A DNA stretch of 64,000 nucleotides. Source: Bacteroidaceae bacterium (GTDB lineage Bacteria > Pseudomonadota > Alphaproteobacteria > RF32 > CAG-239). This document shows, piece by piece, positions 2,313-56,694 of the stretch; position 1 is the stretch's first letter, and each line of letters opens with the position of its first letter. Under the pieces are notes generated by a model. The model was not told the origin of the DNA and did no database searches. It was given only the letters and a program-made list of their open reading frames with translations. Position numbers and translations under genes: made by a program. The stretch covers positions 2,855 to 66,854 of the forward strand of contig CAVIDY010000001.1 of the NCBI GenBank assembly GCA_963641885.1, written 5' to 3'.

Positions 2313-2510
2313 CTAACTATTCTTCTTGCGCTCAGCAAGGAGCGTGTTGATTTTTGCTACTTCGCGGCGAACTTTCTTCATATTAGAAGTGTTTTGCAGC
2401 TGACCGGTTGATTGTTGAATTCTCAAATTGAATTGCTCTTTTTTATTGGCAACCAATTTTTCTTCCAACTGGTCATTAGTCATAGCGCGTAAATCTTTAG
2501 TTTTAACCAT
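2313..2510 (-). CDS. rpmC: 50S ribosomal protein L29
   Basis: 65-aa ORF, L29-like ([21 protein letters not shown]). Operon order fits. Confidence 0.93.
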
Positions 2511-2944
2511 TATGCTTCTCCTTCAATGGCATCAGAGTTCAAACGTTTTACGAATTTGCTCTTTACCGGCAGTTTTGCAGCACCCAATTCAAATGCTTTG
2601 CGAGCAACTTCTTCAGGAACGCCGCCGATTTCAAACATAATACGACCAGGTTTAACTCTTGCTACCCAAAATTCGATAGCACCTTTACCTTTACCCATAC
2701 GAACTTCAGCAGGTTTATCAGATACTGGAACGTCTGGGAAAATTCTAATCCATACTCTTCCGGCTCTTTTCATTTCACGGGTAATAGCACGACGTGCAGC
2801 TTCAATCTGACGGGCTGTTACGCGTTCAGGAGTAAGAGCTTTCAATCCATATGAACCGAAACTTAATTCTGATCCACCTTTAGCCAAGCCGTGAATACGA
2901 CCTTTATGCTGTTTGTGGAACTTTAAACGTTTTGGACTTAACAT
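2510..2944 (-). CDS. rplP: 50S ribosomal protein L16
   Basis: 144-aa ORF starting [16 protein letters not shown], an L16 hallmark. Confidence 0.97.
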
Positions 2945-2964
2945 TTTATTCTAACCTCTTGTTA

Positions 2965-3633
2965 TTATTTTTGTTCAGCCAACTTTTTATCTTGCGCCAT
3001 TGGATCGTGGCTCATAATTTCGCCTTTATAAATCCAAACTTTTACACCGCAAGCACCATAAGTGGTATGAGCCGTAGAGGTTGCATAATCAATGTCCGCA
3101 CGAAGTGTGTGCAAAGGCACGCGACCTTCACGATAGTGTTCAGTTCTAGCGATTTCAGCACCGCCCAAACGACCGCTACAAGAAACTTTGATACCTTCTG
3201 CACCCAAACGAAGAGCAGACTGCATAACTCTTTTCATAGCTCTACGGAAAGAAACACGACGTTCCAATTGTTGAGCCACAGAGTCAGCAACCAACTTCGC
3301 ATCAAGCTCAGGTTTTCTAACTTCAACGATGTTCAATTGAACTTCAGAATCAGTCAATTTTTGAATATCTTTTCTCAAATTCTCGATATCCTGACCCTTT
3401 TTGCCAATAACAACACCTGGTCTAGCTGAGTGAATAGTAACTCTTGCTTTTTTAGCCGGACGTTCAATAACAATGCGGCTAATACCAGCTTGAGCCAATT
3501 TTTCATTCAAGAATTTTTGAATTTTCAAATCTTCGTGGAGATAGTCAGTAAACTTGTCATCAGCATACCAACGAGAGTCCCAAGTGCGGTTAACGCCCAA
3601 ACGAAGACTTGTAGGATTTACTTTCTGTCCCAT
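2965..3633 (-). CDS. rpsC: 30S ribosomal protein S3
   Basis: The S3 sequence begins [14 protein letters not shown] prefer the start at 3633 (Met 6 of the ORF) because it lies just after the rplV stop at 3638. Confidence 0.95.
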
Positions 3634-3637
3634 CTGC

Positions 3638-3994
3638 TTACTCCCCACGCTCTGCTACAACAACGGTCATGCTTGAGAAAGGCTTCAAAATTCTTGCGCC
3701 TCTGCCGCGACCGCGTGCACTCATACGTTTCATTACAATACCTTTACCGACATAAGCTTCGCTTACTACGAGTTTGTCGATATTCAAATTATGATTATTT
3801 TCAGCATTGGAAATTGCAGATTGCAGCAAACCCAATGCAACTTTTGCGATTCTCTTCTTAGAAAAGCTCAGTTCAGCAACTGCTTTTTCTACACCCAAAC
3901 CACGGATAGATTGAGCAACAAGGTTCAATTTACGCGGACTTGTGCGAATAGAGCGGCAAACAGCCATAGCTTGTTTTTCATTCAATTTAGCCAT
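3638..3994 (-). CDS. rplV: 50S ribosomal protein L22
   Basis: 118-aa L22-like ORF. Operon order fits. Confidence 0.95.
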
Positions 3995-44718: not shown

Positions 44719-45327
44719 CTAAAACAACTTAGTTCCGGCAGCAAATCCTGCCACTTTATATTTTTCGAAACGGCTTTCCAAACGTTTGGTATAGGCTTCG
44801 CCTTTTTGCGGATTTGCCGAATGATAGCGTTTGGCTGCCTTCTTCCAATTTTGTCCGTGCTTGCTGTACAATGTACGCAAAAATTTAGCGCTATATTTCA
44901 CGTTATTGGAAGGATCTATTGCTTCATCAACGGAATTAAATGCTTCTCCGTGATATTTCAAGTTAATTTGCATACAGCCCACGTCAATACTTTCAATTCC
45001 CTGTGCCTGAAATTTTTTTACAGCGCGCACAGCGTCTTCGCGTGAGGCAAAATAGTAGCCTTTTCCTTCAACATTAACTGTCCATGGCCAAGCCACATAT
45101 CTGTTTTGCAAATCATCCCATCTGCCGCTTTCCACCGCTGAAATGGTTTGCAGCAAATCAAATTTAACGCCGTATTCATTACCTGCTTCTTTTGCGGCAA
45201 TAGAACAAAGAGCACCGTCAGAAACCAGCTCTTTTACCGGCAGTAAGTCAGCGTCTCCGTTTGCATAAATAGCGTTACTAAAAAGCACCAGCCCGCTGGC
45301 TAACAAAAAACAAAATTTATTAAACAC
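44719..45327 (-). CDS. Lytic transglycosylase (SLT domain), secreted
   Basis: A signal peptide, then ISAVESGRW...PWTVNVEGKGYYF...DVGCMQINLKYHG. Confidence 0.85.
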   Translation of the reverse strand: MFNKFCFLLASGLVLFSNAIYANGDADLLPVKELVSDGALCSIAAKEAGNEYGVKFDLLQTISAVESGRWDDLQNRYVAWPWTVNVEGKGYYFASREDAVRAVKKFQAQGIESIDVGCMQINLKYHGEAFNSVDEAIDPSNNVKYSAKFLRTLYSKHGQNWKKAAKRYHSANPQKGEAYTKRLESRFEKYKVAGFAAGTKLF

Positions 45328-51232: not shown

Positions 51233-53116
51233 TTATCTGACCGGAGCAAACACTTGCACGTCGTCTAGTGTTTCGTCCGTGCACTGATTGCCGTGGCAGC
51301 GTTTCATTACTGTTGCTTTACGAGACTTATTAAGCCCGCGCACTTTAATTGACGGCACGTAAACTTCAATAATTGTCAGTTTAAATGTCAAATAAGCAAT
51401 GTTGTTGTTTTTATCCAAAGCATAAATTTTAATTTTATAAACTCCGCCGTCTTTCGGCATAGCCATACCGGTAAAGACCATCGCATTAGAATTATAATGC
51501 AGCCATTTCGGCAGTGGAGAATCATCAACTAAACCTGCTTTAGTAGTGAAAGTCCCCGGTTTCCAGCCCATTTTTTCAAAAGCTGAATTAGGAATTTTAA
51601 TTTCGATATGCTCGCCGGTTTCATACGTTACGTCCGGCAGCAATTTTTCAGACGACAAATTAACCGGCGGACGGCGGCTTGGAATATCCATCAAATACGG
51701 ACGGTTATCCGGTATAAATTCGCCCTGACGCCATTTGTCAAGATTATCGCGCAAAGCAATGGCAATTTTAGACGGCGATTCGTTCAGCATATAATACGGA
51801 ACTGCGTCCAAACCAATTGTTGCATATAAAGTGCCTAAAGCGTCCTGCAAATCCACATAAGCTAAAGAAGCTTTTGTTTCATCGGCAATCGCGCGTGCGG
51901 CTTCAAGCTGGCTTTTTTCAGCTTGACTACCGTTTGCAGAAGTCACATCTTCGGCAATATTTTCTGATGTTCCGGCAATTTCATAAGCAATTTGATAATC
52001 TTCGGTTGCCGATGTATAGCGAGCCCAAGCAATATAAACCTGATTCAAAATCAACGAGGTCATACGCTGGCGGCGCAAAGCCGTCATAGTTTGCTGATTA
52101 GCCGCATTGCGGGAATCTTCATAAACCAGCATAGAGGCTTCTTTCGCCGCGTTGCACCATTTTTGATTATAGGTGTTCGGACTGTTTTTATAACCGCTGC
52201 CGTTATCATCGCGGAAGTTAGAAATAATAAGTTCCAAATCGTCATTACCAGTCAGCAAATCGTGAACTTTCAATTCCGGACGGTTGGTTAAAGCCAGCCA
52301 TTCCAAACGTGAAAGGTTAGATTTAATTTCCGGCAAGGCAAAATTGCCGTATTCTTTACCCACCAATGTAAACTGTGTGGCTGGGTGCAGCCCCATCAGC
52401 GATGCTAAACGCTCGTGAGCGGTTTCCATATCGCGCTTCAAAGCCGAAAGTTTTTTAACAGCTTCCATATACTTACGCTTTTTAACCAGCTCTTCTGTCG
52501 ATGGATTTTGCCCTTGTACCGCCAATTCTTTAGCTTTGGCATTCATTTCATCAACATCAAGAGTGATATGTTCTATTGTATCGTCAATAACCGGAATCAA
52601 ACGCTGCGCGGTCAAGGCTTTCCAATACAAAACGCGTGCTTCCTGTAAAATATTTTGAATAACTTTGCGACTTTGCTCAACTGCCACGTTTTGCTTAAAC
52701 TCCGGAGAATTATTCATATAATACAAAGTAGAAATATCCAGTACATTCCAAGCTACTTTCAAATCAGGACTGGTATGCTCATTGCTGTTGGTGTTTATAT
52801 AGCCGGCGTTAGAGGCAATTTCCGGCAGCTGCGAATAAGCCGATTTTCCTGCTTTAAGCAAGCTTTCCTGATAGCGAATCATTCGTCCGGTATAGTTATA
52901 TTTCAGCGCCAAAGCCATAGACATATACATATCTATAGGTTTTTCTAATTTCAGCGGTGCATTGGCATACATATTCTGCATATCAACATCATAGCGTACA
53001 GCCCTGTCCCAATCTGAATAATAAGCGGCGTCCGGTCCGTTCTTATAAGAAGAGTCATTTTTAGCACAGCCGGAAACAGCTAAAAAACTCATCATCAAAA
53101 ACAGTAGTTTTTTCAT
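51233..53116 (-). CDS. TolC-like outer membrane efflux lipoprotein with a C-terminal Ig-like (He_PIG/cadherin-like) domain
   Basis: Lipobox MKKLLFLMMSFLAVSGC with the start at 53116. OEP-type repeats are present (...LALTNRPELKVHDLL...). The C-terminal motif LPKWLHYNSNAMVFTGMAMPKDGGVYKIKIYALD resembles a putative Ig domain. Confidence 0.65.
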   Translation of the reverse strand: MKKLLFLMMSFLAVSGCAKNDSSYKNGPDAAYYSDWDRAVRYDVDMQNMYANAPLKLEKPIDMYMSMALALKYNYTGRMIRYQESLLKAGKSAYSQLPEIASNAGYINTNSNEHTSPDLKVAWNVLDISTLYYMNNSPEFKQNVAVEQSRKVIQNILQEARVLYWKALTAQRLIPVIDDTIEHITLDVDEMNAKAKELAVQGQNPSTEELVKKRKYMEAVKKLSALKRDMETAHERLASLMGLHPATQFTLVGKEYGNFALPEIKSNLSRLEWLALTNRPELKVHDLLTGNDDLELIISNFRDDNGSGYKNSPNTYNQKWCNAAKEASMLVYEDSRNAANQQTMTALRRQRMTSLILNQVYIAWARYTSATEDYQIAYEIAGTSENIAEDVTSANGSQAEKSQLEAARAIADETKASLAYVDLQDALGTLYATIGLDAVPYYMLNESPSKIAIALRDNLDKWRQGEFIPDNRPYLMDIPSRRPPVNLSSEKLLPDVTYETGEHIEIKIPNSAFEKMGWKPGTFTTKAGLVDDSPLPKWLHYNSNAMVFTGMAMPKDGGVYKIKIYALDKNNNIAYLTFKLTIIEVYVPSIKVRGLNKSRKATVMKRCHGNQCTDETLDDVQVFAPVR

Positions 53117-53237
53117 GGTTATTTCCTTAAAGTATACTTCATTTATTCTGCCCTCATAATAATCGCTAAAAATTAACATTTTGTTACACTTTTGCTTATA
53201 TCATACAACTAAACACAAATTTGAGGTATAAATCGAC

Positions 53238-54014
53238 ATGGTTTCAATTTTAGGCACCTTATTTAAATATAAAGAAAAAGAATCTCCTGATGTTTTGGGA
53301 TATTTTCCAGAGCGAGTGCATGTCGATGCTTTTCCAGAGCGCCGCTATTTGTGGACTTCGCGCTTTTTGGTTATGGTAACCTGCCTCAGCATCTGCCTGA
53401 ATATGATTATTGCCAGCATTATCTATATGATATTGCCTGAACAACATGTCCAGCCGCGGCTTTTTGTAATGAACAAAGATACCAATCAGCTAGAGGTCAT
53501 GGAACGCGACGAACGATATTATTACGCTTCCGACCTGATTGCCGAGCAATATATCAGAGATTATATGGTGCTGCGCTATACGGTGACGGAAGATTATGCC
53601 GAATTAAAAGACAGATGGCGCAAAAATTCAATTTTATATTGGTATTCCAGCGAAGACGTTTTTAATGAATTTCTAAAAAAGGACGCAGCCACCGCTGATC
53701 AGCAATTTAAAAGCATCGGTTTGCAGCGCTATATTGAAATAGATTGGACTAAACGCGTGTCGCTTTCTATGTGGATGGTGCAATTCAAAACTTACGATAT
53801 CACCCGTGACAACCCTAAGCCTAAAGTTGATGTATGGCGCGCCACTCTGCGGGTGGGCTATGACGGCAACCTGCGTTTTAAAAAACCAGAAGACCGCATC
53901 AAAAATCCGTATGGATTCTTGGTTTACAGCTATACGCTTTCTTATCAGGGCGACTACCGCAACGGACCAGAAGAGGTCAATTCAAACCTAAAATATAATT
54001 TGATGATGTACTGA
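53238..54014 (+). CDS. VirB8-like (type IV secretion VirB8/TrbF family) protein, orphan
   Basis: The layout is bitopic: a ~45-aa cytoplasmic N-terminus, one TM helix, then a ~190-aa periplasmic domain. It has a C-terminal NPYGFLVYSY motif (compare NPLGF.V..Y) and AEQYIRDYMVLRYTV. No other T4SS genes lie in the window. Confidence 0.55.
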   Translation: MVSILGTLFKYKEKESPDVLGYFPERVHVDAFPERRYLWTSRFLVMVTCLSICLNMIIASIIYMILPEQHVQPRLFVMNKDTNQLEVMERDERYYYASDLIAEQYIRDYMVLRYTVTEDYAELKDRWRKNSILYWYSSEDVFNEFLKKDAATADQQFKSIGLQRYIEIDWTKRVSLSMWMVQFKTYDITRDNPKPKVDVWRATLRVGYDGNLRFKKPEDRIKNPYGFLVYSYTLSYQGDYRNGPEEVNSNLKYNLMMY

Positions 54015-54030
54015 TTTAATACATCATCAA
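54000..54030. terminator. Hairpin overlapping the VirB8-like stop codon; likely a bidirectional terminator
   Basis: Stem TTGATGATGTA / TACATCATCAA. Confidence 0.5.
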
Positions 54031-54094
54031 ATACAAAAACTACGCATTCACCATAAATTGCGCATTGTTAGCGGTTGCTTGCCTCAACAACCTA

Positions 54095-55303
54095 TCATCT
54101 TAAAATATCTAACAACTTTTGATAATATGCATCATCTAAGGTAAATGTTGTGTTTTCATTTAAAATAGTACCGTTTTCAAGCTGAAAATATCCATTATCC
54201 AAAATCTGCCCATTCACTAATTCTTTTAGTAATTTACCTTCTGCATCTAAACCATTATAATTTTGATATTTCTTTTCTATCAGATGAAAACATTGTTTCA
54301 TAGAAAACTCATTGCCCGTTTGGCTAATTGACGACCCGCAGCAGCCAGCACAGCAAGCCATCGCATATTCACAAGTTTTGCAAGCTCCCTGCAATTTTTT
54401 GTACTTAATAAAAGACTTATTCCAAGCGCAAAAATCTTCACTGTTCCAAATTTCTTCCAAAGGATGCTCTCTTAAATCGCCTTCTATGTAGTTGTCATCA
54501 TAAATTGATAAGCAGCCAACCACTTTTCCGTTGCTTCGTATCCCTAAAACCTGTCTACCAGCAGGACAGCCATGCCAGTTTTTGTTATATACATTAACAG
54601 AGTTAGGAATAACCTTGGAGTAATATCCCAAATCGTGCATACCTAAAATGGCAAACTTCCCTTTATATCTTTTTTGCATCAGAGCAATAAAAATACCGAC
54701 AACATAAAATTCAAGTTCCGATAAAACCATATTTTCTTCAAGTCTGCCAAAAGGCTGTCCTATCTGTATTTGCCAGGAGCAAAAAAACGAATTACTGACA
54801 AGTTTCATCAAATTCGGCAAATCAAGAACATTTTTATGTGTTACGGTAGTAATGGCTATGGTCGGAAGAAGATTTTTACAAATATCTTCAGACAACGACA
54901 TTATATGTTCAAAAATACCTGGAACCCTTCTAATTCCATCATGAAGAGCAGAGTTAGAACCATCTAGGCTGATTCCCAAAGTTTCTATTTTCTGTGAGCT
55001 TAAAAAACGTATTTTATCACTGTTTAAAGACAGCGCGTTTGTAATAATCTGTACATCTATATCTAAAGAACGCAGCTTTTGCACAATTTCTTTCCATAAG
55101 TGATGTAAAAAAACTTCTCCTCCGATAAGAGCCACTGTTTTGCATTTCAGCTTTGCCAACTCATCGCAAACACGCATAATTTCATCATCGGTTAAATTAT
55201 CTTTTCTATCAATGCCAGCGGAAGACCCGCAATGAACACAATGAGCATTACATCGCAAGGTCAATTCCCACACGGCATTTATCAGAGTCTTAGAACATTC
55301 CAT
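54095..55303 (-). CDS. Radical SAM / SPASM-domain peptide-modifying enzyme
   Basis: The CX3CX2C motif is CNAHCVHC. The SPASM region reads GCPAGRQVLGIRSNGKVVGC ... CKTCEYAMACCAGCC (CX2CX5CX3C). I prefer the start at MECSK (55303), 16 nt after the upstream stop. The alternatives at 55363 and 55402 overlap the upstream gene. Confidence 0.9.
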   Translation of the reverse strand: MECSKTLINAVWELTLRCNAHCVHCGSSAGIDRKDNLTDDEIMRVCDELAKLKCKTVALIGGEVFLHHLWKEIVQKLRSLDIDVQIITNALSLNSDKIRFLSSQKIETLGISLDGSNSALHDGIRRVPGIFEHIMSLSEDICKNLLPTIAITTVTHKNVLDLPNLMKLVSNSFFCSWQIQIGQPFGRLEENMVLSELEFYVVGIFIALMQKRYKGKFAILGMHDLGYYSKVIPNSVNVYNKNWHGCPAGRQVLGIRSNGKVVGCLSIYDDNYIEGDLREHPLEEIWNSEDFCAWNKSFIKYKKLQGACKTCEYAMACCAGCCGSSISQTGNEFSMKQCFHLIEKKYQNYNGLDAEGKLLKELVNGQILDNGYFQLENGTILNENTTFTLDDAYYQKLLDILR

Positions 55304-55319
55304 AGCTGATACTAAACTA

Positions 55320-56027
55320 TTATTCTCTTGCTTTAGACTTGAAGAGCGTTGCCTTAAATTCATGTTTTTCGCTTTGTACGCTGCTTCTCTGTTGCAGTTC
55401 AAGCTTTATGCGATTAGACAAACTGTCATTGTTTTCACCCCTTGGAAGCAGCATAGATTTTCCGTTATTATCCGCCACAAAATCCATTCCGCGAGCTCCC
55501 ATATATTTAGTTGCATACACAACTTGAGCATTATCTGCATTGAAAAATTGATTATCTCTGCGTGTTGCAGGTGCATTTGCAACTTGAGTAGTGTCCGCGT
55601 TGGTATTTTGATTATTTCCATGGTCGAGTTGTTCAACTTTTTTCTTTACTTCTGCCAGCAATTTTTCTACTTCTTTTATTTGTTCCTGCACCTTTTTTAT
55701 ATCATCTTTTCTTAAATCGCTTTTAGAAATGCTATCAAGCGTATGCCTTGAGGCTTCTATTACATTTGCATCTCGATTCGGATTATATAGTGCACCTTTC
55801 ATAACTTTAGCAACATACGGTACTAATGCAGGATTAACAACTTCTTCATTTTTACCTTTACGATAAAAACTAAATTCCTGAGCATGCATCACAGCAACCG
55901 TTAACACAACAGCTGTAGTGTCTCTTTGAGTAAAAGAATACAATTCCCGCAAAGCCGCAGGTCTAGGTTTTCCTAATTTAACGGAATTTTCCAACGCCGA
56001 CATTTTTGCTAAGTCAACCCGTTCCAT
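55320..56027 (-). CDS. Unknown 235-aa protein lying between the precursor peptide and the rSAM maturase
   Basis: It is co-oriented and tightly spaced within the operon. It has a globular ~100-aa N-domain, a coiled-coil segment (KKVQEQIKEVEKLLAEVKKKVEQL) and an Asn/Gln-rich C-half. I recognise no family. Confidence 0.65.
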   Translation of the reverse strand: MERVDLAKMSALENSVKLGKPRPAALRELYSFTQRDTTAVVLTVAVMHAQEFSFYRKGKNEEVVNPALVPYVAKVMKGALYNPNRDANVIEASRHTLDSISKSDLRKDDIKKVQEQIKEVEKLLAEVKKKVEQLDHGNNQNTNADTTQVANAPATRRDNQFFNADNAQVVYATKYMGARGMDFVADNNGKSMLLPRGENNDSLSNRIKLELQQRSSVQSEKHEFKATLFKSKARE

Positions 56028-56080
56028 CTTTACTTTATTTGGTTTCTTAGGAAATGTAATATTTGGCTTCGGTGCTTCCG

Positions 56081-56269
56081 TTAACCAAGCCTTTCTTCCG
56101 GAATTAATTCATAATCTGCATATGGTAAATCATAATCATTATCTCTTGGTGCCAATTCATAATTTTCTTCTGATAGCTCATGACTATCGTTATCCAATGG
56201 TGCTAATTCATAATTTTCTGTTTTTGCGTCTGCAGTGCTTGTCAATTCTGTGTCTGTAGCGTCGGTCAT
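56081..56269 (-). CDS. Candidate RiPP precursor peptide: 62 aa, Cys-free, hyper-acidic, with three Y-E-L-(A/I)-P repeats
   Basis: An AGGGGA Shine-Dalgarno lies 6 nt before the ATG. The sequence is MTDATDTELTSTADAKT-ENYELAPLDND-SHELSE-ENYELAPRDND-YDLPYA-DYELIPEE-RLG. It is the first gene of the rSAM operon. Confidence 0.6.
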   Translation of the reverse strand: MTDATDTELTSTADAKTENYELAPLDNDSHELSEENYELAPRDNDYDLPYADYELIPEERLG

Positions 56270-56287
56270 TTCTTTTCCCCTTTTAGT

Positions 56288-56392
56288 TTATTGTTCATAT
56301 AAGTTCAGTTTACCCCCCTGATTTTTTGTCAAGTATTTTTTGATAATTTGTACTAAATTTTTTCTTTTTTCATCAAAACTTATATTTTCCAT
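56288..56392 (-). CDS. Possible additional 34-aa peptide (MENISFDEKRKNLVQIIKKYLTKNQGG-KLNLYEQ)
   Basis: It uses an internal Met of the 67-aa ORF, with GAAGGG about 10 nt upstream. It ends 18 nt before the precursor start. An 85-aa plus-strand ORF competes for the same DNA. Confidence 0.2.
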   Translation of the reverse strand: MENISFDEKRKNLVQIIKKYLTKNQGGKLNLYEQ

Positions 56393-56694
56393 TGATTTAC
56401 ACCCTTCAGACATTTTGAGAGAGTTTAGCGTTGAATTTCTGGTGAGGGGTATGTTAGACGAATTTAACAATATAAACAAAGAATTATACACTCAATATCC
56501 AATGGCTGAAACTGTAAAGGTTTTAAATTTGGTTCCCCAAACATGGACTAGAGTCACTGTACAAGATTTAACCGATACATGGGGAAATCGGAGCTGATTT
56601 TAAATTTTTAAAGTCTACTTCACAAACATATTGTTTTATACTTGTTTTTGTGTTATAAAAATAGTGTTTTCAAATTATTCAAAATTTTATTATT

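What the first reader, a model, noticed from the sequence alone, without database searches (positions are those of the whole stretch)
54095..56392. Unrecognised radical-SAM/SPASM RiPP-like operon built around a Cys-free, Tyr-repeat acidic peptide
Seen in sequence:
- Three co-oriented minus-strand genes lie close together. The peptide stop at 56081 is 53 nt from the 235-aa gene start at 56027. That gene's stop at 55320 is 16 nt from the rSAM start at 55303.
- The enzyme has CNAHCVHC (CX3CX2C).
- It also has a complete SPASM region: GCPAGRQVLGIRSNGKVVGC followed by CKTCEYAMACCAGCC (CX2CX5CX3C).
- The leading 62-aa ORF has a good Shine-Dalgarno, no Cys and no Trp.
- It carries three near-identical units: ENYELAPLDND, ENYELAPRDND and DYELIPEE.

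Established knowledge: SPASM maturases sitting beside small repeat-bearing peptides are the hallmark of RiPP pathways. Thioether classes (sactipeptides, ranthipeptides) need Cys and are therefore excluded. The known Cys-free, Tyr-directed SPASM chemistries are PqqE (Glu-Tyr C-C), MftC (Val-Tyr) and the three-residue cyclophane formers (aromatic-X-X).

Inference: each Y-E-L(-A/I-P) unit is a modification site, for example a cyclophane or a Glu/Tyr cross-link. I do not recognise the motif, the partner protein or the combination as any named RiPP class.
Basis: partly seen in the sequence, partly recalled or inferred. Interest (0 to 1): 0.85.

Follow-up and report, generated by a model that had tools for sequence, protein, structure and literature searches.

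The report
Splicease-type radical SAM and substrate protein
This is not a new peptide class built on the Tyr-repeat peptide: it looks like a two-gene "splicease" system, a known kind of radical SAM enzyme that cuts tyramine out of a Tyr site in the neighbouring protein, here with an unusual Tyr-Met site and a frameshifted substrate gene.

Summary
The three minus-strand ORFs, the CX3CX2C and SPASM motifs and the YEL repeats are all present as described.

The interpretation needs revising in three ways.

(1) The 62-aa "precursor" is not a conserved peptide. It has no relative among 5.8 billion proteins. In the closest relatives the same start (MTD/MAD…) belongs to a single gene fused to the 235-aa homolog. 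The window differs by a ~108-nt repeat insertion and a 1-nt deletion that creates the stop codon.

(2) What co-occurs with the enzyme's orthologs is a Tyr site in the gene directly upstream: TKYGV, KYGVAPV or DYG[LF]. It is found in 21 of 22 loci. The upstream ORFs hold 41 YG dipeptides against 8.6±2.8 expected. The window's subclade instead has the invariant stretch YATKYMGARGMDFV.

(3) The enzyme's best named matches (TIGR03913, TIGR04103) sit beside X-Y-G precursors in annotated genomes. X-Y-G is the published target of spliceases such as PlpX, which excise tyramine and leave an α-keto-β-amino acid.

Best reading: a binary, splicease-type module acting on Lys174-Tyr175 of the adjacent protein. 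It is a variant with Met instead of Gly after Tyr. The chemistry is inferred, not shown. Interest is moderate to low.

The parts
54095..55303 (-). Radical SAM/SPASM enzyme, 402 aa, a splicease-type maturase. The real start is ATG 55303, not the upstream TTG 55402.
   Evidence: PF04055 and PF13186. The best NCBIfam hits are TIGR03913 (167 bits) and TIGR04103 (150 bits), both below cutoff. Orthologs are about 402 aa, 89% down to 40% identical. The AF2 model has pLDDT 91.
55229..55252 (-). CNAHCVHC: the CX3CX2C motif that binds the radical SAM [4Fe-4S] cluster (residues 18-25).
   Evidence: Read directly. C18, C22 and C25 are invariant in 30 homologs.
54290..54568 (-). SPASM auxiliary-cluster region (C246 to C338).
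   Evidence: PF13186 covers residues 246-312. C246, C264, C308, C311, C317, C321 and C338 are invariant.
54098..54289 (-). Post-SPASM C-terminal extension (residues 339-402). It is structured and is shared with the nif11-class-3 and GDL-type maturases, but is missing from the more distant ~345-aa relatives.
   Evidence: The alignment shows LDNGYFQLENG against FDNGEFAIIEEP and FAIGEFALITEP. The TIGR04103 alignment runs to residue 377. pLDDT is 82-96.
55320..56027 (-). 235-aa ORF: the conserved substrate protein. It is the 3' part of an ancestrally single gene.
   Evidence: Homologs lie directly upstream of every close ortholog of the enzyme. No Pfam or NCBIfam family matches.
55476..55517 (-). 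Invariant stretch YATKYMGARGMDFV (residues 171-184). The predicted modification site is K174-Y175-M176, at 55508-55500.
   Evidence: It is invariant in proteins that are 61-71% identical overall. It corresponds to STKYMGARG (L001), STKYMAARG (L091) and TKYGV and similar sites in 21 of 22 orthologous loci.
56081..56269 (-). 62-aa ORF: the 5' fragment of the substrate gene, holding the conserved start MTDATD and a variable acidic region.
   Evidence: P0122 starts MADAAD and P0123 starts MTDSAD, both as N-termini of the fused gene.
56093..56218 (-). YEL[A/I]P repeat region, a lineage-specific insertion of about 108 nt made by local duplication.
   Evidence: Absent from L081. Direct repeats of 34 nt are 85% identical and 51 nt apart. 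No homolog was found anywhere.
56090..56098 (-). Frameshift site. The window has a 1-nt deletion relative to L081 (GGAAGA-AAGG against GGATGATGAGG), which brings TAA 56083-56081 into frame.
   Evidence: Alignment A2. Inserting one base gives a single 316-aa ORF reading …YELIPExKAWLTEAPKPNITFPKKPNKVKMERVD….
53998..54032 (-). Terminator-like hairpin (15-bp stem plus a T-run) just after the rSAM stop codon.

Best explanation
The locus is a two-component ('binary') splicease-type module.

The 402-aa radical SAM/SPASM enzyme acts on the protein encoded immediately upstream. That protein was ancestrally a single gene of about 316 aa. In this genome a 1-nt frameshift splits it into the 62-aa and 235-aa ORFs.

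The conserved target is the Tyr in the invariant segment YATK-Y-MGARGMDFV, near the C-terminus of the 235-aa protein. This site is the counterpart of the X-Y-G sites (TKYGV, KYGVAPV, DYG[LF]) found next to all orthologs.

By homology with PlpX-type spliceases, the enzyme is inferred to use a 5'-deoxyadenosyl radical to excise a tyramine equivalent (C8H9NO, -135.06 Da) from Tyr175. It would then rejoin the backbone, turning Lys174 into an α-keto-β-amino acid, a Lys-type ketoamide. A ketoamide is an electrophilic warhead of the kind that inhibits Ser/Cys proteases. With Lys at the warhead position, trypsin-like proteases are the plausible target.

The YEL repeats are a recent duplication in the variable N-terminal region and are not the conserved site.

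Shown here: enzyme family similarity, the conserved neighbour motif, the gene fusion and frameshift, and the lack of conservation of the 62-aa ORF.

Inferred: the chemistry, its tolerance of Met after Tyr, and the protease-inhibitor role.
For: (1) Conserved neighbour motif. Twenty-one of 22 orthologous loci, from Alphaproteobacteria, Elusimicrobia, Melainabacteria and one Gammaproteobacteria MAG, have at least one YG in the ORF directly upstream of the enzyme. That is 41 YG against 8.6±2.8 in shuffles (0 of 20,000 shuffles reach it). KYG is 29-fold enriched over control ORFs. Apart from the site, these proteins are unrelated: some carry a signal peptide, some a TM anchor, some are multi-TM, and some are soluble.

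(2) Closest named enzyme families. The best NCBIfam hits are TIGR03913 (167 bits) and TIGR04103 (150 bits). The next hit, heme b synthase, scores 108 bits.

(3) Annotated members of those families sit beside X-Y-G precursors.
- The Nostoc Nif11 precursor ends …SIALYGLPPELF, and a small Y-like ORF follows the enzyme.
- The Azospirillum and Burkholderia DUF1843/DUF1842 proteins carry [MLP]YG…GDL.
- An Agathobacter rectalis homolog (35% identical) has an unannotated upstream ORF reading …PVMYGTGVRM.

(4) Literature. Spliceases are rSAM/SPASM enzymes that excise tyramine at XYG. Binary systems without a Y protein exist, and proteins can be substrates. About 939 systems have been predicted by mining YG-rich neighbours. 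Ketoamides inhibit proteases (PMC11414181, PMC11626197, PMC10533398, PMC10849128, PMC9811515). The published splice tags …(M/G)YGVVFP and …(L/G)YGLPI resemble L008 TKYGVVFPDD and L004 TKYGVVRPE.

(5) The post-SPASM C-terminal extension is shared with both reference enzymes.

(6) The Tyr-Met site is under constraint. YATKYMGARGMDFV is invariant in three proteins that are 61-71% identical overall. L001 and L091 keep Y-M within STKYMGARG and STKYMAARG. Tyr-Met also recurs at the Y-X10-GDL position of a conserved Azospirillum paralog.

(7) The fusion and frameshift are documented.
Against: - The window's own substrate lacks the defining Y-G. Tyr is followed by Met, and no reference read here shows splicing at a non-Gly +1 position.
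- The enzyme scores far below the trusted cutoffs of both named families (167 against 592 bits; 150 against 725 bits), so it is not a member of either equivalog.
- Not every XYG is spliced. The DYG site of RcsA was not modified (PMC11626197).
- I could not read Scott et al. 2022 (Chem 8:2659), so I do not know whether GDL-type systems or this clade were validated.
- No splicease structure exists for comparison.
- The frameshift may reduce or abolish expression of the substrate, or it may be an assembly error.
- The substrate model was unusable (pLDDT 42).
Confidence: 0.55

Rival explanations
1. The 62-aa ORF is a stand-alone RiPP precursor, and each Y-E-L-(A/I)-P unit is cross-linked by the rSAM (a cyclophane or a Glu-Tyr link). 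This would define a new class.
For: The ORF has a strong Shine-Dalgarno sequence and is co-oriented with the enzyme. The repeat is real. Y-E-L-A-P loosely resembles the Y-G-V-A-P sites of the Elusimicrobia orthologs.
Against: - No homolog was found in 5.8 billion proteins.
- The repeats are absent from the relatives whose enzymes are 89%, 85%, 79% and 67-68% identical.
- The ORF's start is the conserved start of the fused neighbouring gene, and its stop arises from a 1-nt deletion.
- The enzyme's closest named families are YG-associated, not the cyclophane formers, PqqE or MftC.
Confidence: 0.06
2. An add-on to the main model. In the unshifted full-length protein, the three YEL(A/I)P units are extra sites for an enzyme that in this subclade no longer needs Gly after Tyr (Met at the conserved site, Glu in the repeats). 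The product would carry several warheads.
For: The subclade's conserved site is Y-M, so the +1 position is not restricted to Gly. Orthologs often carry 3-4 repeated sites of the form Y-G-[VL]-x-P. YELAP shares the Y-x-[VL]-A-P spacing.
Against: - The repeats are unique to one genome.
- The residue before Tyr is N or D rather than the K typical of the family.
- A DYG site was not spliced in RcsA.
- The region is now out of frame with the rest of the protein.
Confidence: 0.13
3. The enzyme performs a different Tyr-directed reaction at K-Y-(G/M), not tyramine excision. Candidates are a Lys-Tyr or Tyr-to-+2-residue C-C/C-O cross-link (triceptide-like) or an epimerisation.
For: The clade is only 26-31% identical to the annotated nif11-3 and GDL maturases and scores below their cutoffs. 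SPASM enzymes are chemically diverse. The strongly conserved Lys before Tyr and the hydrophobic residue at +2 could be cross-link partners.
Against: - The only chemistry experimentally tied to X-Y-G neighbours of this enzyme lineage is splicing.
- The site context matches published splice tags.
- The top 25 NCBIfam hits include WgkB, PqqE and MftC only at much lower scores.
Confidence: 0.18
4. The module is decaying in this genome. Gly-to-Met at the site and the frameshift make the substrate non-functional, and the enzyme is a remnant.
For: The frameshift splits the substrate gene. The 235-aa ORF has only a weak ribosome-binding context.
Against: - The enzyme ORF is intact, with all invariant Cys.
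- Y-M is invariant across six relatives whose enzymes are 67-89% identical. That implies selection, not decay.
- The internal Met of the fused gene is conserved and could serve as a start.
Confidence: 0.08

Closest known systems
Spliceases / spliceotides (PlpX, PcpX, RhaX, RasX, RcsX; Morinaka et al. 2018 Science; Scott et al. 2022 Chem). The binary 'type II-like' systems without a Y protein are the closest.
   Same: - The enzyme is rSAM/SPASM, and its closest named HMMs belong to this lineage.
- The substrate is encoded immediately upstream.
- Orthologs carry the X-Y-G site, in contexts close to published splice tags (YGVVFP, YGLP).
- Repeated sites and protein-sized substrates occur.
- No Y protein, protease or exporter is present in the module.
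- The post-SPASM extension is shared.
   Different: - The window's site is K-Y-M, not X-Y-G.
- The enzyme is only 26-31% identical to annotated members and scores below the family cutoffs.
- The substrates have no Nif11 or NHLP leader. They are diverse proteins, many of them exported or membrane-anchored, and Lys is strongly preferred as X.
- The hosts are mostly animal-gut MAGs.
- The chemistry is untested.
TIGR03913: GDL motif peptide-associated radical SAM/SPASM maturase, with DUF1843/DUF1842 partners.
   Same: It is the best-scoring named family (167 bits). Its partners carry [MLP]-Y-G at a fixed position, and one conserved paralog has M-Y-M-A, the same Tyr-Met variant as in the window.
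   Different: The window's substrate has no Y-X10-GDL motif and no DUF1843 domain. The score is well below the 592-bit cutoff. The TIGR03913 enzymes are longer (about 490-515 aa).
   Same: They share the rSAM/SPASM fold and act on a Tyr-containing substrate. PqqE is among the structural neighbours.
   Different: The scores are much weaker: PqqE 67 bits against a cutoff of 381, and MftC 91 against 265. There is no RRE or PqqD-like partner. The conserved motif is X-Y-G, not E-x3-Y, a C-terminal G-V-Y, or Ω-x-x repeats.

Membership tests
Radical SAM superfamily (PF04055) | CX3CX2C cluster motif and a match to the core domain | tested here: met
   CNAHCVHC at residues 18-25. PF04055 scores E=1.8e-17, 64.5 bits against a cutoff of 29.5.
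SPASM subfamily (PF13186) | C-terminal Cys-rich auxiliary-cluster domain | tested here: met
   PF13186 scores 46.1 bits against a cutoff of 21.5. Seven Cys are invariant across 30 homologs. The fold neighbours are SkfB, SuiB, PqqE and anSME.
Spliceases (spliceotide maturases) | The enzyme is more similar to PlpX-lineage maturases than to any other named rSAM family. | tested here: met
   TIGR03913 (167 bits) and TIGR04103 (150 bits) rank first. The next hit scores 108 bits. A C-terminal extension is shared. That TIGR04103 is the PlpX family rests on two things: the Nostoc locus architecture and my own recollection. PMC11002830 gives only IPR026482.
Spliceases (spliceotide maturases) | The enzyme scores above the trusted cutoff of a curated splicease-lineage model (TIGR04103 or TIGR03913). 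| tested here: not met
   150 against 725 bits, and 167 against 591.75 bits. It belongs to an unnamed sister clade.
Spliceases (spliceotide maturases) | X-Y-G motif in the adjacent precursor (orthologous loci) | tested here: met
   Found in 21 of 22 loci: 41 YG against 8.6±2.8 expected. KYG is enriched 29-fold.
Spliceases (spliceotide maturases) | X-Y-G motif in the adjacent precursor (this window) | tested here: not met
   Neither the 62-aa nor the 235-aa ORF contains YG. The conserved site is K-Y-M-G.
Spliceases (spliceotide maturases) | Loss of C8H9NO (-135.06 Da) and formation of an α-keto-β-amino acid | not testable with these tools
   This needs co-expression and HR-MS/MS.
Type I (ternary) spliceases | A small PqqD-like Y protein encoded next to the X enzyme, with a Nif11/NHLP leader on the precursor | tested here: not met
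   There is no ORF between the rSAM stop (54095) and the terminator or the convergent VirB8-like gene. The substrates match no Pfam or NCBIfam family. If this is a splicease it is of the binary type.
TIGR03913 GDL-motif system | The partner peptide carries Y-X10-GDL (DUF1843). | tested here: not met
   Neither window ORF contains GDL. Neither matches DUF1843.
Sactipeptide / ranthipeptide maturases | Cys in the substrate for thioether formation | tested here: not met
   Neither the 62-aa nor the 235-aa ORF contains Cys. Most ortholog sites lack Cys as well.
Anaerobic sulfatase-maturating enzymes | A sulfatase substrate encoded nearby | tested here: not met
   No sulfatase lies in the window's neighbourhood or in the 30 or more orthologous loci.
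PqqE / MftC | A score above the family cutoff, plus PqqA/PqqD or MftA/MftB partners | tested here: not met
   PqqE scores 67 against 381 bits and MftC 91 against 265 bits. No such partners are present.
Three-residue cyclophane formers (triceptides) | An XyeB/GrrM/FxsB-type enzyme with Ω-x-x repeat precursors | tested here: inconclusive
   None of these families is among the 25 best NCBIfam hits shown, out of 62. Y-G-V could formally be an Ω-x-x unit, and the chemistry is untested.

The most novel reading that the evidence does not exclude
The window's subclade (enzymes at least 67% identical, site [AS]TKYM[GA]ARG) is a splicease variant that has dropped the Gly requirement after Tyr. It would then process Tyr-Met, and possibly the Tyr-Glu of the YEL repeats. 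Alternatively it has switched to a different Tyr-directed reaction. More broadly, the ~402-aa clade may install Lys-type ketoamide warheads on exported or surface-anchored proteins of gut bacteria, acting as genetically encoded inhibitors of trypsin-like proteases.
Probability: 0.2. Interest if true: 0.6.

Novelty: new variant of a known kind. Interest (0 to 1): 0.35.

Why it matters
If the inference holds, several things follow.

- Tyramine splicing would extend to an unnamed enzyme clade found mainly in uncultured animal-gut Alphaproteobacteria, Elusimicrobia and Melainabacteria.
- That clade acts on leaderless, protein-sized substrates, many of them exported or membrane-anchored, through a short K-Y-G tag.
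- A conserved Lys at the warhead position points to trypsin-like proteases as targets. That would be a plausible adaptation to the gut.
- The Tyr-Met site would relax the "XYG" rule used for genome mining and for protein-engineering splice tags.

For the scan itself, the useful result is corrective. The eye-catching Tyr-repeat peptide is a frameshifted, lineage-specific fragment, and the real conserved site lies in the neighbouring ORF.

Tried and rejected
- **Exact look-up of the 62-aa product:** not on record.
- **Homolog search with the 62-aa peptide:** it found only itself.
- **JGI metagenome scan for the repeat DNA:** no hit.
- **Tandem Repeats Finder on the repeat region:** nothing at score 30 or above. 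The repeat finder did show the 34-nt copies.
- **Pfam and NCBIfam scans of the substrates from the window and eight orthologous loci:** no family matched.
- **Validated splicease sequences from paper supplements:** none are held.
- **Scott et al. 2022 (Chem):** not held. I could not check whether this clade or the GDL type was among the 27 validated or 939 predicted systems.
- **PDB sequence and fold searches:** only generic SPASM maturases came back, and no splicease structure exists.
- **Enzyme residues that separate the Y-M subclade from the Y-G clades:** only one column differs (M192 against Leu), which is not informative.
- **AF2 model of the 235-aa protein:** unusable, with pLDDT 42 from a 3-sequence alignment.
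- **Other substrates in the window:** the only other TKY[GM]/KYG hits lie in a housekeeping-length ORF or in non-coding frames, so none was found.
- **Rejected outright:** the sulfatase-maturase, sactipeptide/ranthipeptide and PqqE/MftC readings (see the membership rows).
Full report
**1. Observation**

The three co-oriented minus-strand ORFs are as described.
- The 62-aa ORF is 56269-56081.
- The 235-aa ORF is 56027-55320.
- The radical SAM gene is 55303-54095.
- The gaps between them are 53 nt and 16 nt.

The enzyme has CNAHCVHC and a complete SPASM region. Pfam confirms PF04055 and PF13186. The 402-aa length from ATG 55303 equals that of its orthologs, so the longer TTG-initiated ORF in the mechanical list is not the gene.

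The 62-aa ORF has no Cys or Trp. It carries ENYELAPLDND, ENYELAPRDND and DYELIPEE. At DNA level these are 34-nt direct repeats, 85% identical and 51 nt apart, plus a weaker third copy. A terminator-like hairpin follows the rSAM.

**2. The 62-aa ORF is a fragment of the neighbouring gene**

The peptide has no relative other than itself among 5.8 billion proteins. Its repeat DNA has no match in the JGI metagenomes.

Relatives of the enzyme have a single gene upstream:

| Enzyme identity to window | Loci | Upstream gene |
|---|---|---|
| 89% | L081, L083 | 260 aa, MADAADKEITEYDD…KEKMERVDLAKMS… |
| 85% | L088-L090 | 349 aa, MTDSADVKNEQHKVV…, with an extra module of about 120 aa |
| 79% | L085, L086 | more than 385 aa (N-terminus cut by the contig end) |
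| 67-68% | L001, L091 | 356-357 aa |

The window's 62-aa ORF begins MTDATD, which is the conserved start of that gene. The DNA alignment with L081 shows two differences in the window. One is an insertion of about 108 nt that holds the YEL repeats. The other is a 1-nt deletion (GGAAGA-AAGG against GGATGATGAGG) immediately before the TAA stop.

Adding one base restores a single 316-aa ORF. Its junction, …KAWLTEAPKPNITFPKKPNKVKMERVD…, matches …EAWIEIEPEQDKKFPENPNKEKMERVD… in L081. I cannot tell whether the frameshift is real or an assembly error.

**3. What is conserved next to the enzyme**

A genome scan returned 22 orthologous loci at 68% down to 39% identity. By their record titles they come from gut and rumen Alphaproteobacteria, Ca. 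Enterousia, Elusimicrobia, Melainabacteria/Gastranaerophilales and one Gammaproteobacteria MAG.

The ORF directly upstream of the enzyme varies widely in length and architecture. Even so, it carries a short Tyr site in 21 of 22 loci:
- TKYGV(V/A/G) in alphaproteobacterial relatives, three copies in L003 and L004.
- YVTKYGV(Y/F)FPDD in signal-peptide proteins of Melainabacteria.
- Three or four copies of KYGVAPV in TM-anchored proteins of Elusimicrobia.
- A C-terminal DYG[LF] in multi-TM proteins of other Alphaproteobacteria.

In numbers, the upstream ORFs hold 41 YG dipeptides against 8.6±2.8 in shuffles (0 of 20,000 reach it). KYG is 29-fold enriched over other long ORFs of the same loci.

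In the window's own subclade the equivalent site is [AS]TKYM[GA]ARG. The 14-residue stretch YATKYMGARGMDFV is invariant in the three closest proteins, which are 61-71% identical overall. The conserved partner and site are therefore the 235-aa protein and its K174-Y175-M176, at 55508-55500.

**4. What the enzyme is related to**

The best NCBIfam hits are TIGR03913 ("GDL motif peptide-associated radical SAM/SPASM maturase", 167 bits) and TIGR04103 ("nif11-class peptide radical SAM maturase 3", 150 bits, aligned over residues 9-377). The next hit, heme b synthase, scores 108 bits. All are far below the trusted cutoffs.

Annotated members found in plasmid records show what these families sit beside:
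- The Nostoc nif11-3 enzyme follows a Nif11 precursor ending …SIALYGLPPELF. A 71-aa ORF follows the enzyme.
- The Azospirillum and Burkholderia GDL-type enzymes follow DUF1843/DUF1842 proteins. These carry MYGVAIQSAAASGDL, LYGGAMTEAIASGDL or PYGVAISDAIVSGDL.
- A 35%-identical Agathobacter rectalis enzyme has an unannotated upstream ORF reading …GPVMYGTGVRM.

The window enzyme shares with the Nostoc and Azospirillum enzymes a post-SPASM extension, LDNGYFQL against FDNGEFAI and FAIGEFAL. In the AF2 model that extension is structured (pLDDT 91 overall).

Among more distant relatives of about 345 aa, 14 of 55 loci have a YGx(1-3)P neighbour. That is a 3.8-fold enrichment, p=5e-6.

PDB sequence and fold searches return only generic SPASM peptide maturases.

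**5. Link to known chemistry**

The literature identifies X-Y-G as the target of spliceases.
- PlpX and its relatives are rSAM/SPASM enzymes that excise a tyramine equivalent (C8H9NO, -135.06 Da). They leave an α-keto-β-amino acid derived from residue X.
- Binary systems without the Y protein exist.
- Splicing can be leader-independent and can work on proteins.
- Mining for YG-rich neighbours predicted about 939 systems in 189 genera, of which 27 were validated.
- Ketoamide products inhibit Ser/Cys proteases.
- The published splice tags (AVAAGYGVVFP, PIRPLYGLPI) closely resemble L008 TKYGVVFPDD and L004 TKYGVVRPE.

The most economical explanation is that this ~402-aa clade is a splicease-type maturase with a cognate substrate encoded upstream.

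**6. What differs in the window**

The site is K-Y-M, not X-Y-G. Two observations suggest this is a functional variant and not decay.
- Y-M is invariant across six relatives whose enzymes are 67-89% identical.
- The same Tyr-Met substitution occurs at the Y-X10-GDL position of a conserved paralog in two Azospirillum species, (P)MYMAT[VM]TDAIA[KG]GDL.

Whether Met at +1 permits splicing is untested. I found only one enzyme column that separates the Y-M subclade from the Y-G clades, M192 against Leu, and it explains nothing.

**7. Function (inferred)**

The residue before Tyr is Lys in most sites, so the product would be a Lys-type ketoamide. Many ortholog substrates look exported or membrane-anchored, judging by eye from their N-termini. 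Most of the hosts are animal-gut MAGs. Protection against, or inhibition of, trypsin-like proteases is a reasonable hypothesis. It is speculation.

The window's neighbourhood is housekeeping: MetRS, LysRS, a tRNA-editing protein and TrkH. It also contains a VirB8-like gene and an OEP/Ig-like protein. No protease or exporter is present, which fits a two-gene module.

**8. Rivals and verdict**

A weaker form survives at low probability: the YEL units could be extra sites in the full-length protein, because Y-E-L-A-P echoes Y-G-V-A-P. A different Tyr-directed chemistry at K-Y-(G/M) cannot be excluded without mass spectrometry.

Overall, the locus is a new variant of a known kind. It is of moderate to low interest, and most of that interest lies in the Tyr-Met site and the Lys-specific, protein-embedded tags of a gut-associated clade.

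Noticed in passing
L006 3446-4516, L008 4450-5526, L009 3773-4846, L012 4094-5146: The Melainabacteria-type loci carry a second, well conserved rSAM of about 356 aa (…MTYKCNHKC[LI]FCSCPWE…). It lies 0.5-1.5 kb upstream of the KYG-protein genes, which suggests a larger cassette in that lineage.
   Followed up: no
L007 5574-5741; L011 1378-1611: The Elusimicrobia loci encode an additional TM-anchored small ORF just upstream of the main KYG protein. It ends …VQTKYMVGPVGQMK or …IKEKYGLGAIGQMK, so Tyr-Met and Tyr-Gly alternate at the same position there too.
   Followed up: partly
L094 2081-2245; L098 1040-1234: Azospirillum DUF1843 paralogs next to the GDL-motif maturases carry M-Y-M-A at the Y-X10-GDL position, where their sister paralogs have [LP]-Y-G. 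This is a conserved Tyr-Met variant in a named family.
   Followed up: partly
L096, about 2380-2490 (upstream of the rSAM at 2492-3646): The Agathobacter rectalis record has an unannotated 35-aa ORF, MFNLEELSLEFVKISELKTSKNLFGPVMYGTGVRM, directly upstream of a 'radical SAM protein' and an MFS transporter. It is a likely unannotated spliceotide-type precursor in a common human gut species.
   Followed up: no
window 53238-54014 (+), 51233-53179 (-), 44719-45327 (-); L081 2385-3470: A VirB8-like gene converges on the rSAM. An OEP plus He_PIG Ig-like 648-aa protein and an SLT transglycosylase lie nearby. In the closest relative a Fic-domain gene lies just downstream of the rSAM. The window-clade substrates also end in Lys/Arg-rich tails (…KATLFKSKARE). 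No link to type IV secretion was tested.
   Followed up: no
window 56270-56340 and ORF 56288-56491 (-): The 5' untranslated region upstream of the 62-aa ORF is about 90% identical to that of L081, including the Shine-Dalgarno sequence. The overlapping 67-aa ORF is interrupted by stops in L081 and is probably not coding.
   Followed up: partly
P0123 residues 10-125; L001 4925-5998; L091 4604-5674; L085 3-1172: Several window-clade substrates carry an N-terminal module of about 120 aa (…HKVV[IV]N..YGGF.LS.EA…NPALVRCVE.LGE…Y.I.EYDG.E…) with no Pfam match. The window and L081 have lost it. The L081 N-terminus (EITEYDDMEIVRTPDDEAWIEI) looks like its remnant.
   Followed up: partly
window 56093-56218 (-): The acidic E-N-Y-E-L-A-P units resemble short acidic Tyr motifs of secreted effectors (EPIYA-like or pYEEI-like). 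This comparison is from memory and was not tested.
   Followed up: no
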